Notes: generated by a model not told the origin, from the sequence alone. A stretch of 64,000 nt of DNA from an uncultured Candidatus Saccharibacteria bacterium (GCA_964615625.1 CAZTQT010000001.1:12438-76437), one strand, 5' to 3'; positions 40,200-44,505 are shown, numbered from the stretch's first letter. A program made the numbers and translations.

Positions 40200-40565
40200 A
40201 TGCCCAAGTTTGTTAAATCGGCTATTATTTTTTCACTTATTTTATGGATCTTGTGGTTTTATTTTCTATTTTTTGGTCTATCACCAAAATCGTATAAAGA
40301 AATTTTTATTTTTTTAGGGGTTTTGTTCCTAGCAGTTGATATGTCTTTGTCCTTCCCATTTTATTTTATATATAAAAAGAAATACAAGAATTTTACTGAT
40401 ATGGGAATTCTTTATAAAAGAGCTTTAAAGTATGGGTTTTTAATAAGTTTTGGTCTTATTGGTATAGCATTAATGCAAGCTTTTAATATTGTTACTGTTC
40501 TAAACGTTTCTTTATTTGCATTGTTATATGTTGGTGTATTTATGCAAGTGGGTGGGAAAAGGTAA
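40200..40565 (+). CDS. Polytopic small membrane protein, hypothetical
   Basis: Four hydrophobic segments in 121 aa. Confidence 0.4.
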   Translation: MPKFVKSAIIFSLILWILWFYFLFFGLSPKSYKEIFIFLGVLFLAVDMSLSFPFYFIYKKKYKNFTDMGILYKRALKYGFLISFGLIGIALMQAFNIVTVLNVSLFALLYVGVFMQVGGKR

Positions 40566-40723: not shown

Positions 40724-40755
40724 GAGTGGTGGTTTTTGTTAAATCACCACTCCCA
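40724..40755. terminator. Hairpin (GAGTGGTG...CACCACTC) with flanking T-runs. It is the likely terminator of the minus-strand operon ending at 40762.
   Basis: 8-bp GC-containing stem immediately 3' of the 112-aa gene on the minus strand. Confidence 0.5.
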
Positions 40756-40761
40756 TTAATG

Positions 40762-41100
40762 TCATTCAGAGAGATGCTCTTCGGCATCTTTCATAATTGA
40801 CCACACATTTCCGTATAGCCACGACCTTTTCCAACCTTGTTCTTTGGCAACCTTGTTTTTGAAGTTGTCGTAATCTATATCGTCAATGATTTTATCTACC
40901 ACTTTTTTGAAATCTCCAACGCTTACGTAGATTCTGTATCTGTAATCAGCGTCTTCCATTTCCACAATAGAGCCCAGCGAGGGGAGATACCTCTTCAAAT
41001 TTTCAAGGTCTTCTTTTACTCGCGCCCTAATCTGAAGCTCCTCGTCGTTATAGCGACTCCTTGTTACACTAAAAAACCCTACTTTTGTAAAAAGCCACAT
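40762..41100 (-). CDS. Hypothetical 112-aa protein (last gene of the kinase-like operon)
   Basis: No recognisable motifs; same strand, short gaps. Confidence 0.4.
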   Translation of the reverse strand: MWLFTKVGFFSVTRSRYNDEELQIRARVKEDLENLKRYLPSLGSIVEMEDADYRYRIYVSVGDFKKVVDKIIDDIDYDNFKNKVAKEQGWKRSWLYGNVWSIMKDAEEHLSE

Positions 41101-41216
41101 ATCATTCTTTCTCCTTATTTTTTATTTTTTGTATTCTAACATAGAAAGTCCTATAGTCAATAAAGATAAGATTTATAGTGTCAAAATGGAGAGAAAGATT
41201 AAAGAATATGCAAGAC

Positions 41217-41603
41217 CTATATAACAGTTTTTTCAAAGCCTTCTAACAGCTCTTCCATGGTTGTAACGTTTTTATCGCCTGTTACTATTTTGTCTTTTAC
41301 CTTACTCTCATATATTTCCATAGTCATTGGGGTAAATGTGTATCTATTTCCAAGCTCACTTGTAAAACTGAGGTTTTCATTGTTAATAACCAAGTCATTA
41401 GTGATCATGGAGCGTTCTTTATTGGAGTCCCACCATGTTAATAATTTGGAAGATTCATTAAAATTAACTCTTAGTGCAACTAAAACAGTATTATCTAAAA
41501 CAGTATCATCGGGATTTGTACCACTTTCTACAAAAAATAACTTGTTTTCTGATAAAAACGTCTCCATATTAGGTTGATTTGTAAATGATTCTATACTTTC
41601 CAT
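41217..41603 (-). CDS. Hypothetical 128-aa protein (third gene of the kinase-like operon)
   Basis: No recognisable motifs; 31-nt gap to the 865-aa gene. Confidence 0.4.
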   Translation of the reverse strand: MESIESFTNQPNMETFLSENKLFFVESGTNPDDTVLDNTVLVALRVNFNESSKLLTWWDSNKERSMITNDLVINNENLSFTSELGNRYTFTPMTMEIYESKVKDKIVTGDKNVTTMEELLEGFEKTVI

Positions 41604-41634
41604 AAGGTATTTATTGTACCACAGTCATTTTATA

Positions 41635-44232
41635 TTATTCAGCTGTAGTAACCTCCTTTTTATTTAAATTTCTGATATCGAAAAATTCTCCCATATTTTC
41701 TGCACAAACCACAAATTTTTCCAAAGGTATGCCGTTAATTTCCTCTACCCCTAGTTCCTTTCTTATTTCATTTATTAAATACATTCTATTTTCAGGTAGT
41801 CTGGTGCATATACCCATGATCATGTTGGGATGTACACCTCTTTTAAACATTACTTCGTTACTTGGGTAGAAGTTTATTTTTGCGTCATTAACGAATTCAT
41901 CGGCAGAAGGTCTTAAAGAAAAGGTATCTTCACGTATACTGCCGTAGTTATCTTCTTTATATGCATACCAATCTGTTCTATTTAATACCTCTGGATTAAT
42001 AACTAGGGTATAGTTACTTAGGTTAAATTTTGGTGCTGTTTCTTCTGAGATCAATCTAGTAAAAGCACTGTTAAAACCACCGGTCCCGGTATCCTCGCCT
42101 GTTGAAAGTCCGTTTATAATCTTTCCACTCTCCCATCTTGTTTGACTAGCTTGCAAACCTCCCTTAAGCATATTTGTAATATTATCTGACTCATATATTG
42201 AATGTGCTAGGACTAGATTTTGATCTTTAGTCCATTCTTCAACTGCCTTTTCATTGACGTATGTACTATAACCAGGGAATACCTCTTCCAATACAAGTTT
42301 GTTAGCTTCTTCTTTGTTTTTCTCATCCATTTCTGATATCTTATGGAACCATTTATATCTGGCAAATCTGTAAACCATTTCGGCTTCTGTATCAGGTTTC
42401 TCTAATCCGTTATCTATTCCCAAGGTTTTCATAGCTTTTTCTATTTCTGTTGAAATTTGTTCTGGTGACATATCTCCTCCCCTCACAGCTATCTGCACAG
42501 CCCCCTTAAAAGCCAGCTTCTTTTCTGTATCTTCTGCTACATGTATCACTGTGTTTGGAGTTATTTGTATATCTAGGCTTGCAAAGTTAACATTATCACC
42601 GACTTCGTTTGAGTTGAAAAATGTGTAATTATATCCGTGTGATACTTGAGGCACATTCGAACTAGCGGTTTGAATTTCGTTTGTAATCATTGTCGTCCTT
42701 CTGTGGTTTTCAGTAGTTTTAAAATAGACTAAAAAATCGCCTTTGTTTGTACATACCACGTTTATATTATGTCCTTCAATGTGTGTACTGTCTCCGCGTA
42801 CCCCCACATACCCGTGTTTTTCAAGACTTCTTCTAAGTTCTGAAATCTCCAGCGCTTTTGCGAACCCATCTATACCACCTTTTTCCATTGTATTTCTTCT
42901 ACCCTCAATGTTAGTGGTATCTAGATCAAATTTATTAATCAAAAAATTACGTCTCCCAACCATACTGTTGATTAAATGTTCTCTGGTCTCTTCTGGTAAA
43001 TCTTCTCTTGAAACAATTCTTCTAATATCATCCTCACTTAGTTTATCCACAAGATATTGCGCCTGCTTTTTTATCTCTTCTTCAGTTATCCCTTCAAATA
43101 TAAGGGCACTGTTAGGGTTTATACTAGGGTTTAACATGGATTCTAGCTCTGGTATATCTGGGCCGTATTCTTTTAAACCACCTTGAGCTCTAAAAATAAG
43201 AGTTCCTCCGTTATCTATTCTGTACACCCTTCCGTCAGACCCTCGTTCTAAGTTATCAAAACCTAGACCAGCAACGTCCCAGTTTGCTAAAAATGCGTCT
43301 GCAACAAACCCTTTTCTAACGGAGTAGCTGTTTTTCAAATTCTCTTTACCAACTCTTTCATGACCTTCTATCACTCTAGAAATATATGCTGTTTTATTGC
43401 CTATAGCACCTATTTCTGATCTTGGAGCGTGTATTCCAAGATGTTCATAAATATTATTTGATACTGTTTCCACACGTGCTTGATTTGGATCCTCATAAAA
43501 TTTAACGTAATATTCATACCCAGCTGCATCTTTATATAGACCACCATCATTGGAACCTAGATTTTCACCAATTTTGGTCACCCCTCCAAACACCCCTAAA
43601 CGACTGTCTTTAGATACTGGTTTGTAATCTTCCCAAGTGTCAAACTTATGCAAAAACTCACCCCACTCTTTCAAATAATCTTGGGGGTTAATGCCCCATT
43701 CATTAGATTCCTCCTCAGATTCAGTGGTTGAAATATAGTCCACACCTTTCTCTGAATTCGTACGGTCTGCATGTTCAACTTTTTCCCACTTTATATCCTG
43801 CTTAATTCCTTCGTTTCCCCCAGCAATAGTTGAAATACTACCCAAATCTCCTTTCCCGGAGATATCCCAAACTTCAGATGCATCCCATGGAGACGGGGTG
43901 GTTGAAATATCTTCATTGACTGAATTATCAAAGTTTAGCTTACCATATAAGTTATCAAGATTTATCCCTTGGTATACAATATTTGAATTTTCCGTATTCA
44001 AATTTTTTAAATCTGAATAAAGTTTGTCAAACTCATCCATTTCTTCCTCTACCAAATGCTCATTACCTCCTATCATTTTGTAAAATTTTTCCTTAATCTC
44101 TCCAGCTTTCTCAGCTATTTTTTCTTTGATGTCAGAGAAGACTTCAGCAAAGGTTTTCTTTTCCTCTTTTTCTGGAGAAGAGGAGTGTTGTGTCTCAAAA
44201 GAGTTTTTAAGTATATCGGCGTTATATGTCAT
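41635..44232 (-). CDS. Large cytoplasmic protein with a protein-kinase-like catalytic core. The family is unassigned.
   Basis: Gly-rich loop GSNDGGLYK, Lys in YYVKFY, Glu in RVETVSNNIYEHLG, catalytic loop DAFLAN (D...N), DFG-equivalent RIDNGG, with canonical spacing; no TM or signal peptide; 865 aa. Confidence 0.5.
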   Translation of the reverse strand: MTYNADILKNSFETQHSSSPEKEEKKTFAEVFSDIKEKIAEKAGEIKEKFYKMIGGNEHLVEEEMDEFDKLYSDLKNLNTENSNIVYQGINLDNLYGKLNFDNSVNEDISTTPSPWDASEVWDISGKGDLGSISTIAGGNEGIKQDIKWEKVEHADRTNSEKGVDYISTTESEEESNEWGINPQDYLKEWGEFLHKFDTWEDYKPVSKDSRLGVFGGVTKIGENLGSNDGGLYKDAAGYEYYVKFYEDPNQARVETVSNNIYEHLGIHAPRSEIGAIGNKTAYISRVIEGHERVGKENLKNSYSVRKGFVADAFLANWDVAGLGFDNLERGSDGRVYRIDNGGTLIFRAQGGLKEYGPDIPELESMLNPSINPNSALIFEGITEEEIKKQAQYLVDKLSEDDIRRIVSREDLPEETREHLINSMVGRRNFLINKFDLDTTNIEGRRNTMEKGGIDGFAKALEISELRRSLEKHGYVGVRGDSTHIEGHNINVVCTNKGDFLVYFKTTENHRRTTMITNEIQTASSNVPQVSHGYNYTFFNSNEVGDNVNFASLDIQITPNTVIHVAEDTEKKLAFKGAVQIAVRGGDMSPEQISTEIEKAMKTLGIDNGLEKPDTEAEMVYRFARYKWFHKISEMDEKNKEEANKLVLEEVFPGYSTYVNEKAVEEWTKDQNLVLAHSIYESDNITNMLKGGLQASQTRWESGKIINGLSTGEDTGTGGFNSAFTRLISEETAPKFNLSNYTLVINPEVLNRTDWYAYKEDNYGSIREDTFSLRPSADEFVNDAKINFYPSNEVMFKRGVHPNMIMGICTRLPENRMYLINEIRKELGVEEINGIPLEKFVVCAENMGEFFDIRNLNKKEVTTAE

Positions 44233-44398
44233 TTTTAGAACCCATTCTTTTTATGCTTTCTTCTAGCAACCTATTATATTTTGCTTCATCTATCTTTTTT
44301 CTTGCCCTAACAGTAACCTCAGACATTTGTTTTAAAATACCATCAGCATCAGTTTTATATTTTAATAACATCTTTTTTTGTCTCTCATTTATACCCAT
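44222..44398 (-). CDS. 58-aa basic ORF (MGINERQKKMLLKYKTDADGILKQMSEVTVRARKKIDEAKYNRLLEESIKRMGSKNDI). It is translationally coupled to the 865-aa gene by an 11-nt overlap.
   Basis: My own minus-strand translation; the stop TAA overlaps the downstream ATG (AATGACATATAA); below the ORF-track cutoff. Confidence 0.35.
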   Translation of the reverse strand: MGINERQKKMLLKYKTDADGILKQMSEVTVRARKKIDEAKYNRLLEESIKRMGSKNDI

Positions 44399-44505
44399 AT
44401 ATTTGTTGTTAATAAAATAATAAGTATTTATTCAACATAGGTCAATTTTACCCCAGATTTTTACAAAAACTTAGAAAAAACTTAGTTAGATGTTAAAATT
44501 CCAAT

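What the first reader, a model, noticed from the sequence alone, without database searches (positions are those of the whole stretch)
40762..44398. Operon built around an 865-aa protein with a complete protein-kinase-like motif set plus three small unknown proteins, one translationally coupled
The 865-aa minus-strand protein has no TM helix or signal peptide. It carries, in canonical order and spacing, a Gly-rich loop (GSNDGGLYK), a beta3-type Lys (YYVKFY), an alphaC-type Glu (RVETVSNNIYEHLG), a catalytic loop D-x4-N (DAFLAN) and a DFG-equivalent (RIDNGG). That fits a protein-kinase-like or PI3/4-kinase-like fold. It lacks the HipA, APH and UbiB hallmark strings I know. The catalytic core is flanked by ~300 aa of N-terminal and ~350 aa of C-terminal unassigned sequence. 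A 58-aa basic ORF that I translated myself overlaps its start by 11 nt. A 128-aa and a 112-aa ORF follow, and a hairpin terminator closes the unit at 40724-40755. All four partners lack recognisable motifs. A large kinase-like enzyme tightly coupled to small proteins suggests a toxin/immunity, effector/chaperone or anti-phage module. In a putative episymbiont it could be a host-directed effector.
Basis: partly seen in the sequence, partly recalled or inferred. Interest (0 to 1): 0.75.

Follow-up and report, generated by a model that had tools for sequence, protein, structure and literature searches.

The report
Kinase-fused DarT-like ADP-ribosyltransferase with small partner
The 865-aa protein does contain an atypical kinase domain, but the conserved core of the locus is a previously unassigned DarT-like ADP-ribosyltransferase domain paired with the 128-aa protein encoded just downstream, which looks like a toxin-plus-antidote module shared by ultra-small (Patescibacteria) bacteria and, in a partner-less form, by their phages.

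Summary

- a family-specific alpha/beta domain ("mid");

Mid+ART is the evolutionary core, with 2,325 cluster representatives. The kinase is an optional N-terminal add-on.

The three small ORFs differ:
- **128 aa:** follows mid+ART directly in about 70 loci, with or without the kinase. It is absent from kinase-only loci and from most phage MuF-fused versions.
- **58 aa:** a real gene, but found in only three lineages.
- **112 aa:** an independent, mostly phage-associated family with its own promoter-like site.

In relatives, an ADP-ribosylglycohydrolase gene often sits just beyond the partner. The window has none.

Best reading: an ART toxin or effector neutralised by its partner, with an accessory catalytic kinase. 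Target and biological role are unknown. This is a new variant of a known kind.

The parts
44417..44445 (-). Sigma-70-like promoter candidate (TTGACC-17-TATTAT) upstream of the 58-aa ORF
   Evidence: Consensus scan, 10 of 12 matches. The number of such sites in the region is no higher than in shuffled sequence, so this is only a candidate.
44222..44398 (-). 58-aa basic helical ORF whose stop overlaps the large gene's start by 11 nt; a sporadic accessory gene
   Evidence: ORF and overlap. pI 9.85. Homologs sit directly upstream of the ART gene in the L001/L026 lineage and in L027, whose mid-ART gene has no kinase (E 2.9e-30 after iteration). No homolog among the upstream small ORFs (59 tested) of the other loci. 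15 synonymous against 18 non-synonymous codon differences relative to L001. No family match.
41635..44232 (-). 865-aa multidomain protein: variable N-terminus, atypical kinase, mid domain, DarT-like ART
43621..44232 (-). Residues 1-204: two helices followed by a long disordered stretch; variable in length and sequence among homologs
   Evidence: pLDDT below 50 for residues 1-26 and 81-198. BLAST matches to homologs beyond P0002/P0003 start at about residue 218.
42913..43620 (-). Residues 205-440: atypical protein-kinase-like domain (CtkA / HipA / PI4K-II / CotH / actin-fragmin-kinase group) with a complete catalytic motif set
42337..42879 (-). Residues 452-632: family-specific alpha/beta 'mid' domain that always precedes the ART in the cellular family
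41695..42327 (-). Residues 636-846: DarT-like ADP-ribosyltransferase domain; candidate active-site residues H677, R699, S710, D754, E793
41217..41603 (-). 128-aa acidic partner protein; putative neutralising (immunity or antitoxin) protein of the ART
   Evidence: Directly downstream on the same strand, with gaps typically -12 to +35 nt: in every testable genome locus, in 44 of 46 kinase-bearing loci and in 26 kinase-less loci. Absent from kinase-only loci L019 and L023 and from most phage MuF-ART loci. No Pfam or PDB-sequence match. pI 4.34.
41133..41160 (-). Promoter-like site (TTGACT-16-TGnTAGAAT) in the 116-nt gap before the 112-aa ORF
   Evidence: an AAGGAG ribosome-binding site follows.
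40762..41100 (-). 112-aa ORF: adjacent gene from an independent, mostly phage-associated small-protein family; probably not a core part of the module
   Evidence: 106 homologs. Contexts are phage-like or unrelated chromosomal. Among 105 ART loci it is found only in the window lineage and the L001/L029 lineage.
40724..40755 (-). Stem-loop after the 112-aa ORF; a possible but non-canonical terminator
   Evidence: 10-bp stem, centroid -16.6 kcal/mol, z -2.47, no adjacent U-tract. Not flagged by the terminator scan.

Best explanation
The locus encodes an ADP-ribosylation conflict module.

The 865-aa protein is a cytoplasmic, two-enzyme toxin or effector. Its C-terminal DarT-like domain uses NAD+ to attach ADP-ribose to a target. 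It always comes with a family-specific 'mid' domain that probably recognises the substrate or regulates the enzyme. An N-terminal atypical kinase (CtkA / HipA / PI4K-II type) with all catalytic residues intact provides a second, accessory activity.

The 128-aa protein encoded immediately downstream binds and neutralises the ART. It is an immunity or antitoxin protein, not an enzyme of any known eraser class. In many relatives a convergently oriented ADP-ribosylglycohydrolase adds an enzymatic eraser; the window lineage lacks it.

Phages use the same ART as a head-packaged MuF-fused effector, mostly without the partner.

Shown here: domain folds, residue conservation, co-occurrence and gene order. 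Inferred: catalytic activity, inhibition by the partner, toxicity. Open: the target, and whether the module serves abortive phage defence or attack on other cells. The acidic ART domain and the ARH neighbours lean towards a protein or other non-DNA target rather than DarT's ssDNA.
For: **ART domain.**
- 16 of 90 relatives give weak hits to Pfam DarT, always over the catalytic-Glu end. No other family is hit by more than 3.
- H677, R699, S710, D754 and E793 are invariant or nearly so.
- The R699-to-S710 spacing equals R52-to-S63 of DarT1, whose essential residues are listed in PMC11543638.

**Partner follows the ART, not the kinase.**
- It is directly downstream in 44 of 46 kinase-bearing and 26 kinase-less loci, often with overlapping stop and start codons.
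- It is absent from kinase-only loci.
- It is absent from most MuF-fused phage versions. That fits an inhibitor better than an obligatory cofactor.

**Independent support for ADP-ribosylation chemistry.** ADP_ribosyl_GH is the top neighbour family, in 12 of 101 flanking ORFs. It lies 40-150 nt beyond the partner in 29 of 55 non-redundant partner loci.

**Conflict-system signatures.**
- Relatives sit in different chromosomal neighbourhoods.
- Some genomes have two copies on one contig.
- There are phage polyvalent homologs.

**Kinase.** Fold and invariant K/E/D/N/D residues.
Against: - No activity, toxicity or binding has been tested.
- The window protein itself does not hit Pfam DarT. The best relative is just below the gathering score (21.4 against 22.5 bits).
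- The partner has no resemblance to any known immunity, antitoxin or eraser family, and I could not model its structure. 'Inhibitor' therefore rests on gene-order logic alone.
- The window and its 42%-identical relative L001 keep the module at the same housekeeping-flanked site, between MetRS and a membrane protein. That is also compatible with a stable regulatory role.
- No PADLOC defence model matches.
- The ART domain is acidic (family median pI 4.86), unlike what is expected for an ssDNA-modifying DarT.
- There is no recognisable secretion signal or trafficking domain.
Confidence: 0.6

Rival explanations
1. This is an endogenous, reversible regulatory ADP-ribosylation system of the DraT/DraG type. 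The ART writes a regulatory mark on a cellular protein. The neighbouring ARH erases it where present. The 128-aa protein is a regulator or adaptor, or is itself the substrate. The kinase integrates a second signal.
For: - A writer gene with an ARH eraser gene is found in 29 of 55 partner loci.
- The chromosomal position between housekeeping genes is shared with a 42%-identical relative.
- The ART domain is acidic, which suggests a protein rather than a DNA target.
- No defence-system match.
Against: - The same ART family is a MuF-fused, head-packaged phage effector in dozens of viral contigs.
- The best structural relatives are toxins (DarT), followed by effectors OspC3, SopF and CteC.
- Genomic locations vary and some genomes carry two copies.
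- The window has no ARH in 64 kb.
- The tight translational coupling of a small acidic protein to the enzyme is typical of toxin-antidote pairs.
Confidence: 0.18
2. The 128-aa protein is not an inhibitor. It is a chaperone or activating cofactor for a secreted, host-directed effector, as with effector/chaperone pairs. The disordered N-terminus would carry the export signal.
For: - The N-terminal 200 residues are long, disordered and variable.
- Saccharibacteria are episymbionts (established knowledge).
- Several related ART effectors need protein cofactors, for example OspC3/CopC with calmodulin and SopF with ARF1, as described in the structure entries matched.
- Small acidic proteins are typical secretion chaperones (established knowledge).
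Against: - Phage MuF-fused versions mostly lack the partner. An obligatory activator should travel with the enzyme.
- No secretion-system genes lie next to the module in the window or in the relatives examined.
- No signal peptide.
Confidence: 0.12
3. This is a kinase-centred toxin-antitoxin module of the HipBA type. The kinase is the toxin and one of the small ORFs is its antitoxin. The C-terminal domains are accessory.
For: - A small basic ORF overlaps the start of the large gene, in the position HipB occupies.
Against: - About half of the mid-ART proteins with the same partner have no kinase.
- Kinase-only loci have none of the small ORFs.
- The 58-aa ORF occurs in only three lineages, one of which has no kinase.
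- No HipA_C or HTH Pfam match.
Confidence: 0.05

Closest known systems
DarTG toxin-antitoxin systems (DarT2/DarG macrodomain; DarT1/NADAR)
   Different: - The ART scores below the Pfam DarT threshold.
- It is embedded in an 865-aa protein with an obligatory upstream mid domain and an optional kinase.
- The partner is neither a macrodomain nor NADAR.
- The eraser found in relatives is an ARH.
- The ART domain is acidic, and an Asp (D754) sits where DarT1 has the base-coordinating Asn. The target is therefore probably different.
Tre1-Tri1 type ART toxins with ARH-family immunity (established knowledge; Ting et al. 2018, not read here)
   Same: An ADP-ribosylating toxin protected both by a binding protein and by an ADP-ribosylglycohydrolase. 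Relatives of this locus encode both a small partner and an ARH.
   Different: Here binding and erasing would be split between two separate genes. The ART belongs to the DarT-like H-type clade, not the R-S-E clade. No T6SS or other delivery context is present. The window lineage has no ARH.
Phage/conjugative-element polyvalent proteins with MuF heads (Iyer et al. 2017, PMC5512222)
   Same: Both the kinase-like module and this ART family occur in MuF-fused multidomain phage proteins, alongside NUDIX, Zeta-toxin, ADPrib_exo_Tox and Rho_N domains.
   Different: - The window protein has no MuF domain, is chromosomal in a Patescibacteria genome and has a cognate partner.
- The ART described for polyvalent proteins is the H-Y-D Tox-ART-HYD2 clade, and the kinase described there is a truncated HxD Ser/Thr/Tyr kinase. 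Neither matches these domains.
CtkA / HipA / PI4K-II-alpha / CotH / actin-fragmin kinase group of atypical kinases
   Different: No sequence-level membership: no Pfam HipA_C or PI3_PI4_kinase hit. Sequence identity is 9-17%. The domain is fused to an ART, and its substrate is unknown.
HopAG1 of Pseudomonas syringae (ART + NUDIX effector, PMC9963460)
   Same: A multidomain effector combining NAD/ADP-ribose-handling domains. Phage relatives of the kinase-like module have the order NUDIX, kinase-like, ART.
   Different: No homology was tested. The paper documents only the ART and NUDIX domains. A kinase-like middle domain in HopAG1 is my recollection only.

Membership tests
DarT (Pfam PF14487) ADP-ribosyltransferases | ART fold with DarT structures as nearest neighbours | tested here: met
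DarT (Pfam PF14487) ADP-ribosyltransferases | Sequence match to the family model at or above the curated threshold | tested here: not met
   The window protein has no hit. The best relative scores 21.4 bits against a cut-off of 22.5. 16 of 90 relatives give sub-threshold hits. The PDB sequence profile search found no DarT.
DarT (Pfam PF14487) ADP-ribosyltransferases | Catalytic Glu plus the Arg relay and NAD+-binding residues (DarT1 R52, S63, N104, E152; PMC11543638) | tested here: inconclusive
   H677, R699, S710, D754 and E793 are invariant or nearly so, in the right order. R-to-S spacing is 11 as in DarT1. No residue-level superposition was possible.
DarTG toxin-antitoxin system | Cognate macrodomain (DarG) or NADAR antitoxin encoded next to the ART | tested here: not met
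   The partner family has no Pfam match. The neighbour census finds ARH, not macro or NADAR, among the 25 most frequent neighbour families.
DarTG toxin-antitoxin system | ADP-ribosylation of ssDNA bases | not testable with these tools
   Indirect hints against: the ART domain is acidic and the associated eraser is an ARH.
Protein-kinase-like superfamily (atypical CtkA/HipA/PI3-4K group) | Bilobal kinase fold | tested here: met
Protein-kinase-like superfamily (atypical CtkA/HipA/PI3-4K group) | Gly-rich loop, beta3 Lys, alphaC Glu, catalytic Asp/Asn, metal-binding Asp | tested here: met
   All are invariant or at least 90% conserved in 47 sequences and lie on the expected secondary-structure elements. 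The geometry of the pocket was not inspected.
HipBA toxin-antitoxin | HipA_C domain match and an upstream HTH antitoxin (HipB) that co-occurs with the kinase | tested here: not met
   No HipA_C hit apart from one relative at E 0.17. The 58-aa upstream ORF has no HTH match and is confined to three lineages, one of which has no kinase.
Toxin-immunity / type II-like toxin-antitoxin pair (generic) | Small gene adjacent, co-directional, tightly spaced and co-inherited with the toxin domain across lineages | tested here: met
   about 70 loci, gaps typically -12 to +35 nt. The partner tracks the mid-ART unit regardless of the kinase.
Toxin-immunity / type II-like toxin-antitoxin pair (generic) | Toxicity of the enzyme and neutralisation by the partner | not testable with these tools
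   Requires expression experiments or at least a co-folded complex.
Polymorphic toxin systems | Conserved N-terminal secretion or trafficking domain carrying interchangeable C-terminal toxins | tested here: not met
   The pattern here is the reverse: variable, disordered N-terminus and conserved C-terminal enzymes. No trafficking domain or signal peptide.
Phage polyvalent (MuF-fused) proteins | MuF or portal-associated head domain in the same polypeptide | tested here: not met
   No Phage_Mu_F in the window protein or its cellular family. It is present only in distant phage relatives.
Known anti-phage defence systems (PADLOC-DB) | Match to any defence-system protein model | tested here: not met
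   No significant hit for any of the four proteins.

The most novel reading that the evidence does not exclude
The kinase and the ART act one after the other on the same target. This would be a two-step 'phospho-ADP-ribosylation' chemistry used by Patescibacteria and their phages. Either the kinase phosphorylates the ADP-ribose adduct so that erasers cannot remove it, or it creates a phosphate acceptor that the ART then ADP-ribosylates, as in the first step of Tpt1.

Three observations are compatible with this, but none tests it:
- The kinase-like module is fused to at least two unrelated ART clades, DarT-like here and ADPrib_exo_Tox in phage proteins, and also to NUDIX.
- Kinase-bearing loci carry the ARH eraser less often than kinase-less ones, 10 of 33 against 19 of 22. 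This comparison is confounded by shared ancestry.
- Every kinase catalytic residue is invariant.
Probability: 0.12. Interest if true: 0.9.

Novelty: new variant of a known kind. Interest (0 to 1): 0.62.

Why it matters
ADP-ribosylating toxin-antidote pairs such as DarTG and Tre1-Tri1 are known. This locus differs from them in three ways:
- It defines a large DarT-related clade that the curated libraries searched here (Pfam, NCBIfam, PHROGs, PADLOC) do not capture: 2,325 cluster representatives at E <= 1e-3.
- It has its own obligatory accessory domain and a new partner family that is neither macro nor NADAR.
- In about half of the members examined it is fused to a catalytically intact atypical kinase.

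The family is concentrated in Patescibacteria (Saccharibacteria and relatives). These are genome-reduced episymbionts whose means of attacking hosts or resisting phages are largely unknown. Phages carry the same ART as a head-packaged effector.

The family therefore offers a tractable entry point to three things: (i) conflict systems of ultra-small bacteria, (ii) a possible new ART target specificity, suggested by the acidic domain, the Asp at the base-reading position and the ARH erasers, and (iii) possible functional coupling between phosphorylation and ADP-ribosylation.

Tried and rejected
**Searches that found nothing.**
- Pfam, NCBIfam, PHROGs and PADLOC scans of all four proteins gave nothing significant.
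- PDB sequence searches found nothing useful: single sequence, whole-family profile, ART-only profile and partner profile.
- A Pfam scan of all 47 full-length family members found nothing for the kinase or mid domains.
- Rfam on the whole window gave 0 hits.
- The literature search found no description of this family in Saccharibacteria. The one ART mention concerns a pertussis-toxin analogy.

**Ideas tested and dropped.**
- The kinase and ART described for polyvalent proteins are different clades, a truncated HxD kinase and the H-Y-D Tox-ART-HYD2 ART.
- The 112-aa ORF as a partner specific to the kinase. One phage locus (L110) has it two genes after a MuF-NUDIX-kinase-like-ART protein. Five other contexts lack the module, so I rejected it as a consistent partner.
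- The 58-aa ORF as a domain fused to the N-terminus of other homologs: no hits.

**Limits of the tools.**
- The word-indexed homolog search for the 128-aa partner reached only close relatives. Its distribution had to be established with HMMs on the fetched loci instead.


Full report
**1. The observation.**
The four minus-strand ORFs are exactly as described: 58 aa at 44222-44398, 865 aa at 41635-44232, 128 aa at 41217-41603 and 112 aa at 40762-41100. The 58-aa ORF overlaps the start of the 865-aa gene by 11 nt. Gene callers on four independent assemblies that carry the identical protein call the same four genes. The five motif strings start at residues 226, 241, 253, 312 and 338. There is no hydrophobic segment (maximum 19-residue Kyte-Doolittle mean 0.82), and the 58-aa protein is basic (pI 9.85). 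Pfam, NCBIfam, PHROGs, PADLOC and PDB sequence searches return nothing significant for any of the four proteins.

Two details need correcting. The hairpin at 40724-40755 folds well (10-bp stem, about -16.6 kcal/mol, z = -2.5), but it has no U-tract and the terminator scan did not flag it. The 112-aa ORF follows a 116-nt gap that holds an extended -10 promoter-like site and an AAGGAG ribosome-binding site, so it may be transcribed separately.

**2. The kinase-like domain is real.**
A database search found 61 homologs. About 45 are hypothetical proteins at roughly 35% identity; the few that carry a source name are from Saccharibacteria. They align over query residues ~218-846. In the 47-sequence alignment, G226, N228, G230, G231, K244, E255, D312, N317, D319, N327, R338 and D340-N-G-G are invariant or at least 90% conserved.

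The AlphaFold2 model is confident from residue 200 to 855 (pLDDT mostly 85-95) and disordered for 1-26 and 81-198. The motif residues lie on the expected elements: Lys on a strand, Glu on the following helix.
- **Foldseek against the PDB:** H. pylori CtkA comes first (E 2.8e-6), followed by eukaryotic protein kinases, RNase L, PI3K, RIO1 and APH(2'').

With every catalytic residue invariant, the domain is very probably an active phosphotransferase. A non-kinase activity on the same fold, as in SelO or SidJ, cannot be excluded.

**3. The 'unassigned' C-terminus is the key.**

Sequence evidence agrees with the fold. Of 90 relatives scanned individually, 16 give weak hits to Pfam DarT, always over the C-terminal catalytic-Glu part of the model (best E 2.3e-4, 21.4 bits against a cut-off of 22.5). 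No other family is hit by more than three.

H677, R699, S710, D754 and N792-E793 are invariant or nearly so, both in the close family and in the wider set. H677 ends a strand and is followed by a helix, and E793 opens a strand. The R-to-S spacing of 11 equals R52-to-S63 of DarT1. In DarT1, R52, N104 and E152 are essential, and S63 occupies the Tyr position of the H-Y-E motif (PMC11543638). The residue-level equivalence is my inference, because no superposition tool was available.

**4. What is the evolutionary unit?**
An exhaustive HMM search with the ART domain alone finds 2,325 cluster representatives at E <= 1e-3, and 363 at E <= 1e-30. I made domain HMMs for the kinase, mid and ART regions and applied them to all 208 proteins retrieved up to that point. 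They give 80 kinase-mid-ART, 80 mid-ART, 11 ART-only and 13 kinase-only proteins. Mid+ART is therefore the core, and the kinase is an optional N-terminal module.

The kinase-like module also travels on its own.
- It is found in large phage proteins: MuF-(NUDIX)-kinase-like-ADPrib_exo_Tox, Zeta_toxin-kinase-like-ART and NUDIX-kinase-like-DUF3626.
- In two loci it is fused to a different, unknown ~330-residue C-terminal domain.

**5. The small ORFs.**
- **128-aa ORF.** A homolog lies directly downstream on the same strand in every genome locus with a full-length homolog and enough DNA. These include Sungiibacteriota and Colwellbacteria genomes. Over the 105 genome and metagenome loci it is present in 44 of 46 kinase-bearing loci with room for it, and in 26 loci whose mid-ART gene lacks the kinase. 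Gaps are typically -12 to +35 nt. It is absent from the kinase-only loci. It is also absent from 17 kinase-less ART loci, most of them ~1,100-1,140-aa proteins; the four of that size class I scanned (three without the partner) are Phage_Mu_F + Rho_N + ART polyvalent proteins. Most of the 76 non-redundant viral-contig versions lack it as well. The partner therefore tracks the ART, not the kinase. It is acidic (pI 4.3), has a ~100-residue conserved core, and matches no Pfam family or solved structure by sequence.
- **58-aa ORF.** It is a genuine gene: 15 synonymous against 18 non-synonymous codon differences relative to L001, and homologs in three lineages, one of which has no kinase. Among the upstream small ORFs tested in the ART loci (59 in all), only those lineages have it, and it is never fused to the large protein.
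- **112-aa ORF.** It belongs to a broad family of about 110-residue proteins (106 hits). Other members sit mostly in phage-like regions. Only one of six such contexts contains the kinase-like module. It is best treated as a neighbour, not a component.

**6. Neighbourhood.**
I scanned 101 ORFs flanking non-redundant partner-bearing modules. ADP-ribosylglycohydrolase (PF03747) is by far the commonest family, with 12 hits and a best E of 4.6e-82. The rest are scattered housekeeping genes, plus single Imm33 and resolvase hits. An ARH-specific HMM shows the gene 40-150 nt beyond the partner, convergently oriented, in 19 of 22 kinase-less loci and 10 of 33 kinase-bearing loci with enough sequence. 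Many of the kinase-less loci belong to one lineage, so that contrast is not statistically independent.

The window has no ARH in 64 kb. Here the module lies between MetRS and a small membrane protein followed by RmuC and an AddA/UvrD-type helicase. L001 (42% identity) shares the MetRS and membrane-protein flanks, while more distant relatives sit in unrelated neighbourhoods. Some genomes have two copies on one contig.

**7. Mechanism.**
The best-supported reading is an ADP-ribosylation toxin or effector with a cognate neutralising protein. The ART, helped by its mid domain, modifies a target using NAD+. The 128-aa protein, co-translated just after it, blocks it. In many relatives an ARH removes stray modification. 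Phages deploy the same ART, head-packaged and usually without the antidote.

That the partner is missing from phage versions argues that it is an inhibitor, not an obligatory cofactor.

The target is open. The fold says DarT-like, which would mean nucleic-acid bases. Three things point away from DarT's ssDNA chemistry and towards a protein or other non-DNA acceptor:
- the ART domain is acidic across the family (median pI 4.86);
- the position equivalent to DarT1's base-reading Asn is an Asp;
- the associated eraser is an ARH, a family known for Arg- and Ser-linked ADP-ribose (established knowledge), rather than macro or NADAR.

The role of the kinase is unresolved. It could be an independent second activity, a regulator, or a partner in sequential chemistry. 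Its recurrent fusion to two unrelated ART clades and to NUDIX makes a functional link to ADP-ribose chemistry plausible but unproven.

Whether the module serves abortive phage defence like DarTG or attack on the episymbiont's host or competitors cannot be decided here. No PADLOC model matches, and there is no recognisable export signal.

**8. Comparison with what is known, and novelty.**
The module works like DarTG or Tre1-Tri1, but it fails membership of DarTG on two tested features: it is below the Pfam DarT threshold, and it has no macro or NADAR antitoxin. It is not a HipBA system, a polymorphic toxin or a polyvalent protein in the strict sense. The kinase and ART clades described for polyvalent proteins are different ones. 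I found no description of this family in the papers searched.

I rate it a new variant of a known kind: a large, uncharacterised DarT-related clade with its own accessory domain, a new partner family and a kinase fusion, concentrated in Patescibacteria and their phages.

**Scores.**

| Item | Score |
|---|---|
| Interest | 0.62 |
| ART toxin/effector plus neutralising partner | 0.6 |
| Endogenous reversible regulation | 0.18 |
| Partner as chaperone or activator of a secreted effector | 0.12 |
| Kinase-centred HipBA-like module | 0.05 |

Noticed in passing
L001:4765-5760 (-), L019:4725-6746 (+), L023:4926-6839 (+): In the closest syntenic relative (L001), a stand-alone 331-aa ORF sits next to the module. 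It is 40% identical (E 2e-71) to the unknown C-terminal domain fused to the kinase-like module in the two 'kinase-only' loci. The window lacks this gene. This suggests a second functional partner domain for the kinase-like module. Pfam finds nothing for it.
   Followed up: partly
L019:6953-9790 (+), L023:1848-3200 (-) and L023:3319-4440 (+): The kinase-only loci are flanked by large proteins that share a C-terminal DUF3626-like domain (PF12294, E 2.4e-8 in L019), with small ORFs between them. The arrangement looks like an array of toxin or effector genes. P0060 joins NUDIX, the kinase-like module and DUF3626 in one protein.
   Followed up: partly
L003, L011, L032, L037, L046, L048 and about 23 further loci: An ADP-ribosylglycohydrolase gene lies convergently 40-150 nt after the partner gene in 29 of 55 non-redundant partner loci. 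It is present in 19 of 22 kinase-less loci but only 10 of 33 kinase-bearing ones. The contrast may be real or may reflect shared ancestry among the kinase-less loci.
   Followed up: partly
L110:829-4336: A Mu-like prophage or phage region encodes Portal_Mu, then a 984-aa MuF-NUDIX-kinase-like-ADPrib_exo_Tox protein, then a 73-aa ORF, then a homolog of the window's 112-aa ORF. This is the only other context found where the 112-aa family sits near the kinase-like module.
   Followed up: partly
L111:4776-6482, L115:8811-10394: Two phage-like contexts of the 112-aa family also encode Ro60/TROVE-vWA proteins. One has in addition a 1,502-aa protein with a 2',5' RNA ligase (2H) domain. These look like RNA-repair gene sets.
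   Followed up: no
L049:1340-4642 and downstream: One MuF-type polyvalent ART protein carries an intein with an HNH endonuclease inside it. Unlike most phage versions, it is followed by both a partner homolog and a co-directional ARH gene.
   Followed up: no
L038/L039:2456-6793; L021 and L022 (same contig CAUVQU010000002.1): The family is duplicated within genomes. In one case a kinase-mid-ART gene and its partner are followed at once by a second, partner-less mid-ART gene. In another, two complete modules with distinct partners lie about 18 kb apart.
   Followed up: no
P0047 residues ~630-860: After its kinase-like module, this 1,030-aa protein has a region with R...S-x-S...E-x-E-like strings that resemble an R-S-E-type ART. 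Pfam finds nothing there, so this remains an impression only.
   Followed up: partly
window 1-64000: Rfam at gathering thresholds finds no RNA family at all, not even a tRNA, in the 64-kb window.
   Followed up: no
window 40200-40565 (+): A 121-aa, strongly hydrophobic ORF converges on the module. It is 50% identical to the ORF at the same position in L001, yet gene callers on the identical assemblies call only a 54-aa ORF on the opposite strand there. It is possibly an under-annotated small membrane protein.
   Followed up: no
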